Virus record (IMG/VR): IMGVR_UViG_3300023236_000004 | Length of the DNA: 64,000 nucleotides | Reading direction: 5' to 3' (one strand) | DNA from: an uncultured virus (IMG/VR IMGVR_UViG_3300023236_000004) | Lineage: Duplodnaviria; Heunggongvirae; Uroviricota; Caudoviricetes | Shown here: positions 32,324 to 47,599 of the stretch, one piece after another | How the letters are laid out: the number at the start of each line of letters is the position of its first letter | How positions within the stretch are numbered: the stretch's first letter is position 1 | Program-made: the position numbers and the translations under genes | The notes under the pieces: generated by a model | Database searches by the model: none | Told to the model about the DNA's origin: nothing | Seen by the model: only the letters and a program-made list of their open reading frames with translations

Positions 32324-32944
32324 TTAAGACTGTTGTGTATCTATTATCACATCGTCTGCACCTGCTGCCGCAACAGTTACATCACCACCTGATGTGTAAG
32401 TAGTAAATCCACTACCGTCAACTCCAGATAATGCAAAAGTGTTAGTTGCAGTACTTGCCACTGTATAGCCGGTTTCAGTGTTAAGCTCAACCATACCAAC
32501 TACTTTACGGATTGAAATTTTAGTTCCATTTGCAAGTCCGTGACCGGCAGATGTAATAACAACTGGGTTGGCCGCTGTTGCACCTGTGATTGTTTTTTGA
32601 ACTGCACCCGATGCTGAGCCGTCGGCATCTTTTGTCCACTGTTTCCAAGTAGTACCTTCAGTGTAAACTTTTCTGTTGGTCATCTTGGTAACTTGCTGTT
32701 GGTCGCCATCGTTGTCGGTAACGTTGATGGTAAATTCACTAGCACCCAAGGCACCAATTGACTTGTTAACCAGTGTACATGTTTCTGTTTTAGCTCCGTC
32801 AGATACAACGAAACTTTTAGCTGTTCTTTGTCTTTGAATATCTGCACCGCTAAGAACTTCGCTGCCGCTTGCAAACTTAACTGCTGTAATTGCAATCTTG
32901 CCAACGCCATCGCCAATAAACTTTTTTGCTATAGGTCTTCCCAT
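32324..32944 (-). CDS. Virion protein with C-terminal E1-FCCH-like beta domain, possible head decoration (start MGRPIAK)
   Basis: ITGATAANPVVITSAGHGL.NG....I..V.GM.ELN...Y...F.L.G.D...F..YTSGG. SD AAGGAG. Confidence 0.7.
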   Translation of the reverse strand: MGRPIAKKFIGDGVGKIAITAVKFASGSEVLSGADIQRQRTAKSFVVSDGAKTETCTLVNKSIGALGASEFTINVTDNDGDQQQVTKMTNRKVYTEGTTWKQWTKDADGSASGAVQKTITGATAANPVVITSAGHGLANGTKISIRKVVGMVELNTETGYTVASTATNTFALSGVDGSGFTTYTSGGDVTVAAAGADDVIIDTQQS

Positions 32945-33067
32945 TTTGTTTCTCCTTAAATTAAGTGGCGTTCTAGGCCTACGCGGTTTGGTTCCGCATA
33001 AGAACATATAAAGATTTATATGAACAGTAGTATTTATGTAATAGTAGTCATAAAAAAGCAGCCAACT

Positions 33068-33527: not shown

Positions 33528-33554
33528 TTTAACACCCTCCTTTTTAAAGTTAGG

Positions 33555-33606
33555 TGCGTTCCTTCGGTAACCATTACCTACTTCCGTCTCTTTCGAGATG
33601 AACGAT
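33555..33606 (-). ncRNA. glnA-type (glutamine-I) riboswitch aptamer 2
   Basis: AUCGUUCA-UCUC(GAAA)GAGA-CGGAAGUA-GGUAA(UGG)UUACC-GAAGGAACGCA: P1 CGUUC/GAACG, P2, GGAAGUA junction, P3, GAAG. Confidence 0.88.
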
Positions 33607-33611
33607 GATAA

Positions 33612-33664
33612 TGCGTTCCTTCGACTAATAATGAAGTCTACTTCCGGCCTCTCAGCTGAACGTA
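33612..33664 (-). ncRNA. glnA-type (glutamine-I) riboswitch aptamer 1
   Basis: UACGUUCA-GCU(GAGA)GGC-CGGAAGUA-GACU(8 nt)AGUC-GAAGGAACGCA. Same core as aptamer 2, with different but paired P2/P3. Confidence 0.88.
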
Positions 33665-42925: not shown

Positions 42926-42936
42926 GGCTTTTGGCC

Positions 42937-43149
42937 ATGTCTGAATCAGACATGCTTGATTACTTTGACACATTAGATAAACAGTCAAAAGCCTTAAAAG
43001 AAGAAATCCTTAAATTGTGTTGGTATATGCGGGGTAGTCTTTCCTATGATGAAGGTATGTCTTTGTCACAAGAAGATAGATCACTTATGTCCAAACTAAT
43101 CAAAGATAATCTAGAAACAACTAAAAAGTCAGGAATGCCATTCTTTTAA
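42937..43149 (+). CDS. gp51-like small baseplate assembly protein (probably the frameshift extension of gp26)
   Basis: LCWYMRG.LSY.E...LS.EDR..M..LIK pattern. No SD before the ATG. Confidence 0.65.
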   Translation: MSESDMLDYFDTLDKQSKALKEEILKLCWYMRGSLSYDEGMSLSQEDRSLMSKLIKDNLETTKKSGMPFF

Positions 43150-43571
43150 GACTAACTTCGTTAGTCTGTTGATTTCGTTATCACTCATCAACTTGTTTTT
43201 TAATGATATGTTTTTAGACGTTTCATCTAGATCACATGGTCACTCTTTGCCCAGGGCGGGCAAAAAAGTAAACTGCTTCATCTGAGTATAACAGTCACTT
43301 AGCATTAGAGCATTACAGAGGCGGTTGTCCGGTACCTCGAGCTCCGTCTTTATAACAACGGCGATTTATATAACATACGCTAACATATTACATAAACGTG
43401 TAGTATCGCTACTACGTCTTTTTAGCTTTATTGAATCCTGTTCAAACAATCAAACTCTAGCATTGAGAGTCTTCATCCATATGGGTAGTGATTGAGTGCT
43501 TGCTGTAGCGGCAAGTCTTACGTCCCTGCACACGTTACTGTCAGGTTTGGTACACACGAGATTAGCCTGTG
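43150..43571 (-). ncRNA. Candidate ~420-nt structured ncRNA directly 3' of a GIY-YIG gene
   Basis: No ORF listed in the track. At least 10 consecutive or nested helices; G-U pairs and a GCGA tetraloop favour the minus strand. Confidence 0.6.
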
Positions 43572-43994
43572 TTAGCTGTTACTACTTAATTTGTTTATAA
43601 TGTGGGAGCCATGGACACGGACTTGTATATGTCCGTTATAGTATTGTGGTGTTTCTAAGACTTTGTGTCTGAATTGTTCTCGTGCCTCGATATAACTGCA
43701 TTCTGCCTTGCTTTTACAATAGTAGAGTATTTCTCTTTGAAAGTTTTCTGTGCCTAGTTGTTCTATGTCTTTGTTGAGTTCGTCGTTTGAGCCATAATAT
43801 TCACGCCAGTTACTTTCTTTTGTTCCACGGCGTTTGTTCTTCCTGCCTTTAAGTGGGGGCTTGGTGGTTTTAAACCGTGCAAGCTTCTTCCCGATGTATT
43901 TACGGTTATTTGTTAAATTCGTTATCAAATAAACGAATCCAACACAATCTTCTGGTAGTACTTCTATTTCTTTAGATTCAAATAACCATGACAT
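43572..43994 (-). CDS. Stand-alone GIY-YIG nuclease-family protein
   Basis: GFVYLITN..N.RKYIGKK...Y.GS...G.ENF.REIL...E......YYN. 140 aa, with no appended DNA-binding domain. Confidence 0.85.
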   Translation of the reverse strand: MSWLFESKEIEVLPEDCVGFVYLITNLTNNRKYIGKKLARFKTTKPPLKGRKNKRRGTKESNWREYYGSNDELNKDIEQLGTENFQREILYYCKSKAECSYIEAREQFRHKVLETPQYYNGHIQVRVHGSHIINKLSSNS

Positions 43995-44022: not shown

Positions 44023-45792
44023 TTAAGATATTTCTACATCGTTGTTATATGTAGTGAACCCATTTTCTTTCACTACACTTAATACATTGTTAACACGCCC
44101 TGCTAGTTCATCCTTGTGTGATACTAGCCAAACACTACGGTTACCTTCACGTGCCATCTTTTTAAGTATTGCTAAACTGTTTTCAACACCACTAGCATCC
44201 ATGCCAGTGTCAATCACTTCGTCAATAAACATCAAATTAATCTGTTGATACAAACTTTCCCACACGTCACGGAACGCCCAACTCATACTAAGTATCAGTC
44301 TGTTGCGTTCACCCCTGCTCAAGTTGTCAAAGTCTAGTTCTCTACCTAGTTCTTCAATACTTACTGTAAGATCGTTATTAAACTGTACAGTATGCGGAAG
44401 TCCAATCCTATCCAAGTACTGTATTAGTCTTGTGTTTAGATAACTCAAATTTTGATCTATAATGCGTTTACGTATAAAACTATCCTTGTTTGTTAATAGT
44501 TTCAATAAAAAGTCTTGATGTTCTTTTATGTTAGTAAGTGAGTTTATCTTGTCGTAATCAACTTCTTGTACCGCCTGTGTTTCCATTTCAGTAATCTGTT
44601 CTTCATACGGATCAGATTCTGCTAATTTTGTTTCAAGCTGGTTAGTTAAGTTTTCGATTGTGTTTTTGTGATTGATCGCGTCTTCTTTTGAGTCGTAGAA
44701 CACATTGGGTATTGGCCCTGGATCTCCCAGTTTCTCGAGTTGATCAACTTGAGCTTGTACTTTTTCTTTACTTTCATTGAGTTGCTGTTCCGTTTCTTCT
44801 AGTGTTGCCTTCTTCTTCTCTAGTACTTCTAAGTGTTTTTCATCATGTATTTCTTGACCACATGCATAGCACTCATGCTTTTCTAACTTTGCTACTTCCG
44901 AAGTTAAACTTGTGATGTGCTTCTCTAAACGTGTGCATTCCTGGTTACCTGACACTTTCCAGCGATTTACTTCGCTTACTTCTTTAGATATTACACTGTG
45001 CTTATCTAATGCGTCGTGTGCATTTAACTCTGCTTCGATATCTATACCGTCTAAGTTTTCTAGTGCCCCTGCCAACTTATCAACTTCTTCTTGTTTTTTG
45101 TTTTGCCACAAGGTTTGTCTGCGTTTTGTAGCTTCGATCTGCCCTTGCACACGCTCATTAGCGTCCTGTACTGCTTTGATACGATACTCTTCTTCTGTAA
45201 TATCGCCCTTGGTTTGCTTGTTTTGTTCCTTGAGCACATCTGCTTTTTCGCTGAGCATAGTAATGCCTAGTAACTGCTCAATAATTGTACGTTGATCATT
45301 TGCACGTAAACTCAAAAACGGCTCTGTGTATGTGTTTAGTGCCACAATATGTTTAAACATGTCGTGGCTCATATTTAACATGCGTTCTATCTCTGCTTGT
45401 GTCTCTCTTGAATCACCCTGTGACTCATCTGTAATTTCTTGTTCTTGCCCGCCTACGTAAAATGCCACAGTGTTAGGCTTGCGCCCGCGCTCTATCTTAT
45501 AACCAACACCGCTGTTCTCAAACTCAATAGTAACCAACATGTTTTTACCATTGGTTTTGTTTATCAAGTTATCTTTGCGAATCTTTGTTAGTGCTTCACC
45601 GTACAGCGCATAACTTAGCGCATTAATTATAGTTGTCTTGCCTGTACCATTACGTGCGCCAGTATCGTCACCACCTAAGTCCAAATTTTGACCCAACACA
45701 AGAGTTAAATCCTTGCGACCAAAATTAACAGCCTGGGTAGCATTGCCCACGCTCATGAAGTTTTTTACTGTTAGATTATTTACTTTAAACAT
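44023..45792 (-). CDS. gp46: Recombination ATPase, Rad50/SbcC-like
   Basis: KNFMSVGN, NGTGKTT Walker A, CYAC Zn-hook, LSRGE signature, LMFIDE Walker B, VSH. Confidence 0.95.
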   Translation of the reverse strand: MFKVNNLTVKNFMSVGNATQAVNFGRKDLTLVLGQNLDLGGDDTGARNGTGKTTIINALSYALYGEALTKIRKDNLINKTNGKNMLVTIEFENSGVGYKIERGRKPNTVAFYVGGQEQEITDESQGDSRETQAEIERMLNMSHDMFKHIVALNTYTEPFLSLRANDQRTIIEQLLGITMLSEKADVLKEQNKQTKGDITEEEYRIKAVQDANERVQGQIEATKRRQTLWQNKKQEEVDKLAGALENLDGIDIEAELNAHDALDKHSVISKEVSEVNRWKVSGNQECTRLEKHITSLTSEVAKLEKHECYACGQEIHDEKHLEVLEKKKATLEETEQQLNESKEKVQAQVDQLEKLGDPGPIPNVFYDSKEDAINHKNTIENLTNQLETKLAESDPYEEQITEMETQAVQEVDYDKINSLTNIKEHQDFLLKLLTNKDSFIRKRIIDQNLSYLNTRLIQYLDRIGLPHTVQFNNDLTVSIEELGRELDFDNLSRGERNRLILSMSWAFRDVWESLYQQINLMFIDEVIDTGMDASGVENSLAILKKMAREGNRSVWLVSHKDELAGRVNNVLSVVKENGFTTYNNDVEIS

Positions 45793-46643
45793 AAGTGCTT
45801 GATTATCTCAGTGGTGTTTGTGAAATATTTTTCCTGATTAAAAGGCATCTCAATGTTATACTGTTTTTCCAGTACACCGTTGATATAACTTTCTTGCAAT
45901 AAATCTAAATTAGGAATAGCTAGGCTTTCTTTGTTTGCAATACAATTAATTATTTTGTTGCAATGCGACTTGTAATTTCTAAAAATCTGTTTACTGTAAA
46001 ACGTATCCCAGATAGTGTCGTTAATATCTAAACTGCAGGTCCTGCCAACCCAATCAGCAATTTTGTCAAGGTTTTTGTAAAACAACTGTTTATTATAAAA
46101 ACTTTTGTATGAAAAGTCAAAACATTTTATGTCAGACGGGTAAGATAGTTTGTTGTACTCTAAAATCAAACCATTTTGTTCTGGATGCGTAAATCCAAAT
46201 TTAAAAAACTCCCTAAGTATGTGTCTTGGGCAGTTGGGGTTGTCTGCTGACATTTTCAAGTTGGGATACGATTTGTTTAGTGAATCCACTAACCATGAAA
46301 AGTATTTGCTGTTTGCCAGTGTGTTGTATGTGTTGTGCTGTAGATCGTTTAAGTTAATGTTAGAATCGCCTGCACGTAAAAATGTTACTGCGGTTAACAT
46401 CAACAAATCATCGTGATCGACTGTAATACGTAATACACTATCAGATCTATCTATGTTCTCTATAGAATAATGTAATGCACGGAAGTGCTTGTTTTTATTA
46501 TAGTTTTCGTTATCAAACTTGGCATGACTTGCACCTATGCTGTTGAAAGGATTAAAGTCTATGCTTTGCCCCATGATGTATTTGTTACACACATACTCTA
46601 AAAAGTGCCCGTGTGAGCCTGGAACAAAATCAATTGAGATCAT
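45780..46643 (-). CDS. Hypothetical protein
   Basis: 287 aa, AT-rich, N-terminal IDFVPGSHGHFL. Inserted between gp47 and gp46. Confidence 0.7.
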   Translation of the reverse strand: MISIDFVPGSHGHFLEYVCNKYIMGQSIDFNPFNSIGASHAKFDNENYNKNKHFRALHYSIENIDRSDSVLRITVDHDDLLMLTAVTFLRAGDSNINLNDLQHNTYNTLANSKYFSWLVDSLNKSYPNLKMSADNPNCPRHILREFFKFGFTHPEQNGLILEYNKLSYPSDIKCFDFSYKSFYNKQLFYKNLDKIADWVGRTCSLDINDTIWDTFYSKQIFRNYKSHCNKIINCIANKESLAIPNLDLLQESYINGVLEKQYNIEMPFNQEKYFTNTTEIIKHLCLK

Positions 46644-47178
46644 AGGTCTTTTTAATTTTCATTTCCATGTACACGTTGTCTATATTATAGACAAACTTGG
46701 TAAAGTAGAAGTTGTCTGGGATAATGTTTAGAAAACTTTGTATCCTGTTTTCGAAGCGTGAATCATTCAAAGTTGTAGTTACCATGCGTAACACAATAAC
46801 TGATGGTTGTATTCGTTCACTTAGGTACGCTACTGACTGCTTTATTTGTTGTGCAGTTTTGTATTTTAAATAAGTGCCATTGTCGTATACCAGGGTTCCT
46901 TCATTTAGCATTAGTGCAGGAATCTTAGCGTCTGTATAAATGTAATCAAACTGTTGTCTCTCTAGTTTGTAAGAACTACAAGAGTCTAAGTGTTCTAGTT
47001 TGATAATCTTTTGATTTGTAAACAGTTGTTCGTAGTGCCATCCTGCGCTATCAAACAGCACCTTTTTGCCAGGTAACTTATCTAAATCTATAAGTTCATG
47101 TTTGGCCATGCTGATAGTAGGATACACAGTCCTGTAAAAATCGTCACGATTCTCTGCTGTGATCTTAGTTTGTTGCAT
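46630..47178 (-). CDS. Hypothetical protein
   Basis: 182-aa ORF overlapping both neighbours. Confidence 0.65.
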   Translation of the reverse strand: MQQTKITAENRDDFYRTVYPTISMAKHELIDLDKLPGKKVLFDSAGWHYEQLFTNQKIIKLEHLDSCSSYKLERQQFDYIYTDAKIPALMLNEGTLVYDNGTYLKYKTAQQIKQSVAYLSERIQPSVIVLRMVTTTLNDSRFENRIQSFLNIIPDNFYFTKFVYNIDNVYMEMKIKKTYDLN

Positions 47179-47599
47179 ACATCCAAGTCAACGGTTGCAC
47201 AAAATTAAAGTAGCGTCCTTGATCGTTGTCATACGTTCCTGACTGCACTATATTGCAATTTAACACCTGCTGTACTGTAAAAAAGAGGTTTTTACTGTCT
47301 GTGTTACTAGCAGTGTCGTATGTTATTGTAGTATCATTGCCTAATATAAAATAGCGATTAATGCCCAAATAAAATGTTTTGTATTCAGCTAACTGCTGTA
47401 CAAAATCAATAAAATCCGACAACAATCCGGGCTGATTAAACACTGCCACAGCATGTTCACTGTCGGTATCTAAAGTTAATTTCCTAGCAAAATCAGGGTC
47501 GTTCCCTATGTAATTTACAGCAGTATCCTTGTATAAGTCTAAGATAATTTGGTCTTGGTCACAGTTGCTATCGCCTAATTGTATAGTGCGCCAACTCAT
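47165..47599 (-). CDS. Hypothetical protein
   Basis: 144-aa ORF with ATGA overlap to gp47. Confidence 0.65.
   Translation of the reverse strand: MSWRTIQLGDSNCDQDQIILDLYKDTAVNYIGNDPDFARKLTLDTDSEHAVAVFNQPGLLSDFIDFVQQLAEYKTFYLGINRYFILGNDTTITYDTASNTDSKNLFFTVQQVLNCNIVQSGTYDNDQGRYFNFVQPLTWMYATN

What the first reader, a model, noticed from the sequence alone, without database searches (positions are those of the whole stretch)
43222..43299. Two 23-nt AGUGAC-N10-AGAUGAA units flanking a hairpin: dual-guide-like architecture inside the candidate RNA
Seen: on the minus strand, AGUGAC-UGUUAUACUC-AGAUGAA (43277..43299) and AGUGAC-CAUGUGAUCU-AGAUGAA (43222..43244) have identical 6- and 7-nt flanks and different 10-nt cores of equal length. 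They are 55 nt apart and separated by a GC-rich hairpin. A partial third copy (GGAUGAA) lies near 43472..43478. Established: fixed-length variable segments between UGA/GAUGA-containing boxes are the layout of box C/D guides and TIGR tigRNAs. Inference: these could be two protein-binding boxes, each presenting a 10-nt guide (e.g. one per strand for a nicking GIY-YIG dimer), or simply duplicated protein-binding sites. Only two copies exist, so chance cannot be excluded.
Basis: partly seen in the sequence, partly recalled or inferred. Interest (0 to 1): 0.72.

Follow-up and report, generated by a model that had tools for sequence, protein, structure and literature searches.

The report
Self-targeting guide loop in phage RNA
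The two repeats are the conserved tail of a large non-coding RNA of giant phages, where the first copy most likely acts as an RNA guide that pairs with the DNA of the second copy to hold the DNA open, probably to start replication; this is inferred from sequence comparison and has not been tested.

Summary
They end a ~400-nt RNA (5' part = Rfam Polynucleobacter-1) at a core locus of uncultured jumbo phages. The N10 cores are not free guides: they vary in length, end in conserved ACUC/AUCU, and unit 1's pairs into a hairpin. The 7-nt 'flank' box is what varies (24 sequences), yet it is identical in both units in 299 of 304 parsed elements from two RNA families. No partner was found in the RNA, the nuclease, flanking genes or the phage genome. 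Unit 1 has one extra base and differs from unit 2 mostly as G/A and U/C, so it pairs over ~25 nt with the strand complementary to unit 2. DNA-type mini-hairpins follow. Best reading (0.5): unit 1 RNA captures the template strand at unit 2 and seeds an R-loop, ColE1-like, probably an origin. The GIY-YIG is replaceable by a resolvase-like nuclease; not TIGR or box C/D. This scan noted the large RNA before on other DNA and proposed the ColE1 likeness; the notes I saw do not mention the twin-box covariation.

The parts
43572..43994 (-). Stand-alone 140-aa SegE-type GIY-YIG nuclease gene; occupies a slot that a PD-(D/E)XK resolvase-like gene fills in other phages
   Evidence: Pfam PF19835 E 9.6e-37; phrog_447; slot exchange
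43444..43577 (-).
   Evidence: 93.7 bits against a gathering score of 37
43318..43338 (-). Most conserved hairpin of the RNA's middle domain (GAGG-U...CCG-CCUC)
   Evidence: Alignment A1 of 60 sequences, pairs at columns 155-174
43291..43298 (-). Unit 1 5' arm (GUGACUGU): pairs with the linker in the RNA; also complementary, with wobble, to the strand opposite unit 2
   Evidence: Own -4.65 vs swapped -3.5+-0.1 kcal/mol
43284..43287 (-). Unit 1 ACUC: CU matches unit 2's CU after a one-base shift; last C is an extra (bulged) base
   Evidence: Shifted identity 213/213 at both positions, including 10 concerted U to G cases
43277..43283 (-). Box 1 (AGAUGAA): proposed seed of the RNA guide
   Evidence: Identical to box 2 in 208/212 and 91/92 elements
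43268..43276 (-). Linker closing the unit 1 hairpin
43246..43264 (-). Central hairpin between the units
   Evidence: Compensatory changes at columns 265-287, 268-284, 269-283, 272-280
43222..43244 (-). Unit 2 (AGUGAC-core-AUCU-box 2): no covarying stem; proposed DNA target, read on its complementary (template) strand
43168..43192 (-). Hairpin with tandem G-A pairs and a GATA loop, likely folding as single-stranded DNA
43149..43167 (-). 8-bp hairpin with c(GAA)g triloop on the non-template strand; only such hairpin (stem of 6 or more) in 221 kb of the nearest record; could also serve as terminator of the convergent gene
42931..43149 (+). Convergent 72-aa gene after the baseplate-hub gene; marks the conserved position of the element

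Best explanation
Unit 1 is an RNA guide and unit 2 is its DNA target in cis. As RNA polymerase passes unit 2, the already folded transcript presents box 1 in a hairpin loop; it pairs with the template strand opposite box 2 (7 strict pairs, plus CU after a one-base bulge), then the unit 1 arm and core can leave the linker and extend the hybrid to about 25 nt using G-T and U-G wobble pairs. This pins the RNA to its own gene, keeps the duplex open and lets an R-loop persist into the downstream region, where mini-hairpins on single-stranded DNA serve as loading signals. Most likely purpose: a transcription-primed replication origin, working like ColE1 RNA II. Shown: concerted identity, asymmetry, wobble polarity, hairpin distribution, core single-copy position. 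Inferred: that the partner strand is DNA (about 0.6), that an R-loop forms, and that it is an origin (about 0.4). The upstream nuclease is probably a branch-cutting enzyme of the recombination operon, not the guide's effector.
For: Box identity 208/212 against a swap mean of 30.9, maximum 53 in 1000, and 91/92 in a second RNA family. It changes repeatedly: at least 30+9 box changes on unchanged core pairs; L019 and L027 differ at three sites in about 140 nt, two being the same A to G in both boxes. No third partner found. Unit 1 is in a covarying hairpin, unit 2 is not. At arm/core positions 3-8, unit1/unit2 differences are G/A 128 vs A/G 2 and U/C 156 vs C/U 22. Duplex unit 1:complement of unit 2 beats the reverse in 184/212 (-21.1 vs -17.1) and 91/92 (-22.0 vs -13.6); the gain survives shuffling and swapping within a box class and largely vanishes with DNA-DNA parameters. 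GCGNAGC/GCGNNAGC motifs lie within 150 nt after unit 2 on the non-template strand in 139/206 and 68/91 elements against about 0.03 per 150 nt genome-wide; such motifs occur at G4, St-1/alpha3 and ssiA priming sites (PMC13037366). ColE1 needs an rG stretch of the RNA to pair with a dC stretch of the template (PMC4412123).
Against: No experiment, and no read data showing an R-loop, RNA ends or strand. Energies use RNA-RNA parameters as a stand-in for RNA-DNA; so many wobble pairs fit an RNA partner equally well. Wobble polarity reverses at arm position 0 (A/G 24 vs G/A 5) and position 9 (C/U 71 vs U/C 26), and in family A/B the gain over shuffling is only slightly larger forward (-5.2) than reverse (-4.3). 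Rows are related, so counts are not independent, and the module moves by recombination, which inflates tree counts. The box is only partly free: position 5 is A in 304/304, position 0 always a purine. Mini-hairpins also lie on the template strand (89/206, 23/91). Base skew shows no origin signature at the locus. No RNase H gene in five records, one complete. Five mismatched pairs exist, only two in the wobble-friendly direction.
Confidence: 0.5

Rival explanations
1. Unit 1 pairs with an antisense RNA that carries the complement of unit 2 (read-through from the convergent late operon or its own promoter), as a regulatory RNA-RNA switch.
For: Same pairing data as the best explanation; frequent G-U-type pairs suit RNA-RNA; a convergent gene ends 73 nt from unit 2.
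Against: No sigma-70-like promoter facing unit 2; a terminator-like hairpin lies between the convergent gene and unit 2. Other genes often lie between the element and that gene. An antisense RNA would pair better with unit 2 itself. The strict 7-nt identity is not expected of a wobble-tolerant RNA duplex (inference).
Confidence: 0.13
2. Both boxes are RNA guide loops that read two copies of an outside sequence (host or rival phage) for a nuclease dimer: the first reader's idea with the box, not N10, as guide.
For: Duplicated architecture, fast box turnover, nuclease gene upstream in 229 of 239 anchor-found loci. Host genomes were not searched.
Against: No consistent paired or orthologous site in 12 contigs including a complete genome. 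Units are asymmetric and unit 2 lacks a covarying stem. Two unrelated nucleases alternate with the same boxes. Wobble polarity outside the box is unexplained.
Confidence: 0.12
3. The boxes are kept equal by copying or DNA-level strand slippage (template switch across the hairpin), not by selection on an RNA-DNA pair.
For: Very few intermediates (5 of 304); direct repeats flank a palindrome; the module is exchanged as a block.
Against: Identity stops sharply: unshifted positions -3 and -2 are never identical (0/213; partly by parse). DNA-DNA parameters remove most pairing outside the box. No reverse transcriptase in five records.
Confidence: 0.12
4. Two binding sites (RNA loops or DNA iterons) for one protein whose specificity co-evolves with the box.
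For: Box positions 2, 3 and 5 are nearly or fully invariant; unit 2's UGAC and AUCU are conserved in both RNA families.
Against: No GIY-YIG column tracks the box (0.26-0.39 bits against about 1; 89 proteins); best normalised values in flanking genes are 0.49-0.75 on 20-33 loci, without an identity pattern. Spacing ranges 47-68 nt. A degenerate binding site would not force both copies to match. Proteins beyond about 10 kb were not tested.
Confidence: 0.1
5. One reading: N10 cores are fixed-length guides between box C/D-like motifs for a nicking GIY-YIG dimer.
For: Core 2 is 10 nt in 201/212; 77 and 62 distinct cores.
Against:: variable core 1 length, conserved core ends, pairing with the linker, no target, no Nop protein, box C-like 7-mer in 6/212 and 0/212 units.
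Confidence: 0.03

Closest known systems
ColE1 RNA II preprimer (Masukata and Tomizawa 1990, as summarised in PMC4412123 and PMC5043065)
   Same: Large structured transcript; an RNA stretch pairs with the template strand to form a persistent hybrid; single-strand signals downstream.
   Different: Mixed-sequence 7-nt seed plus about 25-nt wobble-extended guide instead of a G/C tract; naturally re-coded many times; phage core locus; no RNA I-like antisense or RNase H gene found; no sequence family match.
T4 R-loop origins oriF/oriG (PMC4412123)
   Same: T4-related phage, transcript-dependent opening of an unwinding region (proposed here).
   Different: T4 origins are described as promoter plus unwinding element, with no large folded RNA or internal guide.
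Rfam Polynucleobacter-1 RNA (RF01718; Weinberg 2010, PMC2864571)
   Same: The 5' 134 nt of this RNA is a member.
   Different: The model covers about a third of the element and not the twin units; sister families lack the motif but keep the units.
TIGR-Tas / box C/D guides / IS110 bridge RNA (PMC12045711)
   Same: Short guide segment in a small RNA module, pairing with DNA (proposed).
   Different: No Nop-domain protein, no array, no box C/D motifs, two segments identical instead of different, target in cis.
Ssn GIY-YIG single-strand nucleases with NTS/SRM hairpins (PMC11893778, abstract and outline only)
   Same: Small stand-alone GIY-YIG gene near DNA hairpins.
   Different: Hairpin is single-copy here, protein is SegE-type and exchangeable for a resolvase-like enzyme; activity untested.

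Membership tests
TIGR-Tas | Nop-domain protein encoded beside the guides | tested here: not met
   PF01798 absent from 5 records, one complete; P0001 and 24 relatives match SegE_GIY-YIG
TIGR-Tas | Array of repeated dual-spacer units | tested here: not met
   Two units only
TIGR-Tas | Two different fixed-length spacers pairing with opposite target strands | tested here: not met
   Core 1 is 9-12 nt; no N10 pair target at 1 mismatch in G001; hosts not searched
Box C/D guide RNA | Box C (RUGAUGA) and box D (CUGA) flanking the guide (consensus recalled) | tested here: not met
   Box C-like in 6/212 and 0/212; CUGA in 14/212 and 45/212
Rfam Polynucleobacter-1 | Covariance-model score above 37 bits | tested here: met
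   93.7 bits at 43444-43577, which excludes the twin units
ColE1-type RNA-primed origin | Transcript segment complementary to the downstream template strand | tested here: met
   By sequence only
ColE1-type RNA-primed origin | rG stretch / dC stretch as the pairing element | tested here: not met
   Box is mixed purine-rich sequence
ColE1-type RNA-primed origin | Persistent hybrid, RNase H processing, priming of DNA synthesis | not testable with these tools
   Needs biochemistry; no phage RNase H gene in 5 records, host enzyme possible
ColE1-type RNA-primed origin | Single-strand loading signal downstream | tested here: inconclusive
   Mini-hairpin motifs enriched on both strands, more on the non-template strand; function unknown
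Mobile homing endonuclease cassette | Patchy, mobile distribution with empty sites | tested here: not met
   Nuclease in 50 and twin unit in 44 of 55 loci found through the neighbouring gene, the twin searched over 1.5 kb only
RT-associated template RNA (retron, DGR, DRT) | Reverse transcriptase gene | tested here: not met
   PF00078 absent from 5 records, one complete
Ssn nucleases | Site-specific cleavage of single-stranded DNA at its hairpin repeat | not testable with these tools
   No assay; no direct comparison with SsnA was run

The most novel reading that the evidence does not exclude
A new class of self-targeting RNA: a large phage RNA that uses a re-codable internal guide to invade its own gene, forming a programmable R-loop that licenses replication or a junction cut by whichever small nuclease sits upstream; moving unit 2 or re-coding the guide would retarget it, possibly also in trans.
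Probability: 0.3. Interest if true: 0.9.

Novelty: new variant of a known kind. Interest (0 to 1): 0.74.

Why it matters
A 2026 review of jumbo phages has no occurrence of 'origin of replication' or 'R-loop' in its text, and the Rfam motif is listed without a function in what I saw. The covariation gives a precise, cheap test (single versus matched double box mutants) for how a widespread aquatic jumbo-phage clade may open its DNA. If right, it is a natural RNA-guided strand invasion with dozens of natural guide/target variants, and it suggests that a very common 'NAD synthetase'-labelled GIY-YIG family (phrog_447) does the job of a junction resolvase in these phages.

Tried and rejected
Partner for the box inside the RNA: none (best other column 0.22-0.38 bits; complement counts within -700/+500 nt no higher for own than for other boxes). 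Protein code in GIY-YIG: none. Flanking genes: none. Own-box enrichment in flanks: none. Paired own-box sites in 12 contigs: sporadic, like other boxes. Orthologous coding sites for 191 own-box occurrences: only the RNA itself recovered. N10 pair targets in G001: 0 at 1 mismatch, 16 at 2 mismatches, no control run. GC/AT skew follows gene direction, uninformative. Metatranscriptome contigs of 4 of 24 listed runs cover the region and its flanks (three runs broadly, one partly); they cannot show strand, ends or level. Weak Rfam hit to cow-rumen-2 (21 bits, cut-off 66) did not recur in 20 other loci. Structure search of the nuclease model gave nothing below E 0.001; I-TevI ranked second at E 0.68. 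blastn of the RNA against cultured phages: no match. A twin-domain profile did not hit the syntenic gaps of PA5oct, Phosso, SCTP-2, Atu_ph07 or RsoM2USA. The four PA5oct ncRNAs reported in PMC7318152 lie elsewhere. Bacterial genome scan: 4 of 39 matches were real elements, all in metagenome-assembled contigs. One search had a slicing bug, redone; one search had a mistyped pattern, redone. Literature searches found no description of this twin unit; the library lacks most subscription papers.

Full report
Observation. The window is from a large T4-related phage: portal, late sigma factor, SbcC-like nuclease and baseplate hub genes surround the site, and the nearest cultured portals are those of PA5oct-like and 121Q-like jumbo phages at 45-50% identity. 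The units lie at the 3' end of a roughly 400-nt non-coding stretch on the minus strand, between a 140-aa SegE-type GIY-YIG gene and a convergent 72-aa gene. Its first 134 nt match Rfam Polynucleobacter-1; the units lie outside that model.

Homologues. I collected loci by the protein (80), by RNA anchors and by the neighbouring gene (80). A first parse gave identical 7-nt boxes in 126 of 126 elements (128 candidates; one truncated, one false anchor), but one search pattern constrained unit 1. A structure-anchored parse that does not use box identity found 221 elements; 11 with two candidate positions were resolved to the 3'-most, 5 without a candidate were dropped, two were re-registered by 2 nt by hand, and duplicates collapsed to 213, then 212. 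Boxes are identical in 208 of 212; swapping partners gives 30.9 on average. Of 17 real elements in the unparsed list, 16 have identical boxes by eye and L419 does not. A second RNA family with different upstream sequence ends in the same module: 117 examined, 9 unparsed, 92 distinct, 91 identical. Together 24 box sequences. Parsimony needs 18/10/11 changes at box positions 0/4/6 on an 89-protein tree and 34/19/24 on a 194-row RNA tree, but these are inflated because the module is swapped as a block (L062 vs L387). A safer lower bound is 30+9 box changes on unchanged core pairs. The box is not fully free: position 5 is always A and position 0 always a purine.

What forces the two boxes to match? 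Not a third strand in the RNA, not the nuclease, not neighbouring genes, not paired or orthologous coding sites in 12 contigs including the complete 347-kb G002; hosts and distant phage proteins were not tested. The remaining complement of box 1 is the strand opposite box 2. Three asymmetries point that way. Unit 1 has one extra base between CU and the box (shifted identity 213 of 213, with 10 concerted U to G cases). Unit 1's arm pairs with the linker with covariation and folds better on the RNA strand (167 vs 41), while unit 2 has no covarying stem. Differences between units are mostly G/A and U/C in the unit 1/unit 2 order (128 vs 2 and 156 vs 22 at positions 3-8; reversed at positions 0 and 9), which lets unit 1 pair with the complement of unit 2 through wobble pairs. 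The duplex is better in that direction in 184 of 212 and 91 of 92 elements. Controls: shuffling the 5' part costs 5.2 and 5.8 kcal/mol forward against 4.3 and 1.0 in reverse; swapping within a box class costs 2.2 and 1.2; with DNA-DNA parameters the gain falls to 2.0 and 0.8. These use RNA-RNA energies as a proxy and related rows.

Downstream, the sequence changes character. Perfect hairpins with c(GNA)g or c(GNNA)g loops occur within 150 nt after unit 2 on the non-template strand in 148 of 206 elements and on the template strand in 48; shuffles give 1-4; the RNA body gives 9 and 1 of 153. A long GNA-triloop hairpin lies there on the non-template strand in 9 of 12 contigs, on the template strand only in 1, and is absent in 2; it is the only one in 221 kb of G001. 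GCGNAGC/GCGNNAGC motifs give 139 and 89 of 206, and 68 and 23 of 91. A review (PMC13037366, passages) reports these as unusually stable DNA hairpins, weaker as RNA, found at G4, St-1/alpha3 and ssiA priming sites and N4 promoters. The last hairpin could instead, or also, terminate the convergent gene.

The element is core, not mobile: among 55 loci reached through the neighbouring gene with 1.2 kb or more of flank, 50 have the nuclease and 44 the twin unit within the 1.5 kb searched. Among 239 anchor-found loci the upstream gene is the GIY-YIG in 214, an unrelated PD-(D/E)XK protein in 15 (many redundant) and neither in 10, never both. That protein is PF24608 / phrog_244, labelled RusA-like resolvase, and the two families exclude each other in the five records tested, only one of them complete. 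So the RNA does not need the GIY-YIG, which may itself be a branch-cutting enzyme (inference).

Mechanism. Most likely unit 1 RNA captures the template strand at unit 2 during transcription and seeds a persistent R-loop, with single-strand signals behind it: a ColE1-like origin. The review passages I read state that in ColE1 an rG stretch of the RNA must pair with a dC stretch of the template (PMC4412123) and that the trigger remains speculative (PMC5043065); I did not see the 1990 paper, and its compensatory-mutation rescue is recalled. Rivals: antisense RNA partner, twin guides for an outside target, copying/slippage, or protein sites. Nothing here shows an R-loop or replication; skew and metatranscriptome contigs were uninformative, and no RNase H or reverse transcriptase gene was found.

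Prior knowledge. For PMC2864571 I saw a search listing and supplement hits (table rows, alignment, diagram), not any commentary on the motif, which may exist in files I did not read. PMC12045711: passages. PMC11893778: abstract and outline. PMC7318152: passages and one supplement search. PMC13282480: passages. Ten searches found no account of the twin unit. Earlier notes of this scan described the large RNA in other genomes and gave the ColE1 lead; I adopted that lead after my own target searches failed, so it is not independent support.

Verdict. Real, widespread and under strong pairing-type constraint; works most plausibly like ColE1 RNA II but fails membership of TIGR, box C/D, homing-cassette and RT-template families. 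Interest 0.74; new variant of a known kind, with a 0.3 chance of being a new class of self-targeting guide RNA.

Noticed in passing
L568:4108-4614 (-), L141, L298, L315, L396: An unrelated PD-(D/E)XK resolvase-like gene replaces the GIY-YIG directly upstream of the RNA; suggests phrog_447 ('NAD synthetase') proteins of this clade act as junction resolvases.
   Followed up: partly
L013, L030, L044, L053, L074, L589-L708: A second large RNA family with no Rfam match (8 loci scanned) and different upstream sequence that ends in the same twin-unit module.
   Followed up: partly
L710:6760-7774 (Sinorhizobium phage Phosso): About 1 kb non-coding gap between the annotated resolvase and an RNase HI gene, with DNA-type hairpins at its end; homology to this RNA not shown.
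   Followed up: partly
L709:6670-8180 (PA5oct); L713:6624-7780 (RsoM2USA): Syntenic, largely non-coding gaps in cultured relatives; RsoM2USA has a wobble-compatible repeat pair 63 nt apart resembling the twin unit, not confirmed by the profile.
   Followed up: partly
L062 vs L387: The unit 1-hairpin-unit 2 block is exchanged as a cassette between otherwise identical flanks.
   Followed up: partly
window 33553-33664 (-) and 32942-33022 (-): Tandem glutamine (glnA) riboswitch aptamers and a freshwater-2 RNA.
   Followed up: no
window 45780-47599 (-): Three ORFs between the SbcD-like and SbcC-like genes have a match in only 1 related locus each: a variable insert in the recombination operon.
   Followed up: no
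L626, L635, L009, L032, L075: More divergent elements with longer or altered boxes (8-9 nt identical in L626, L032, L009; imperfect in L075).
   Followed up: no
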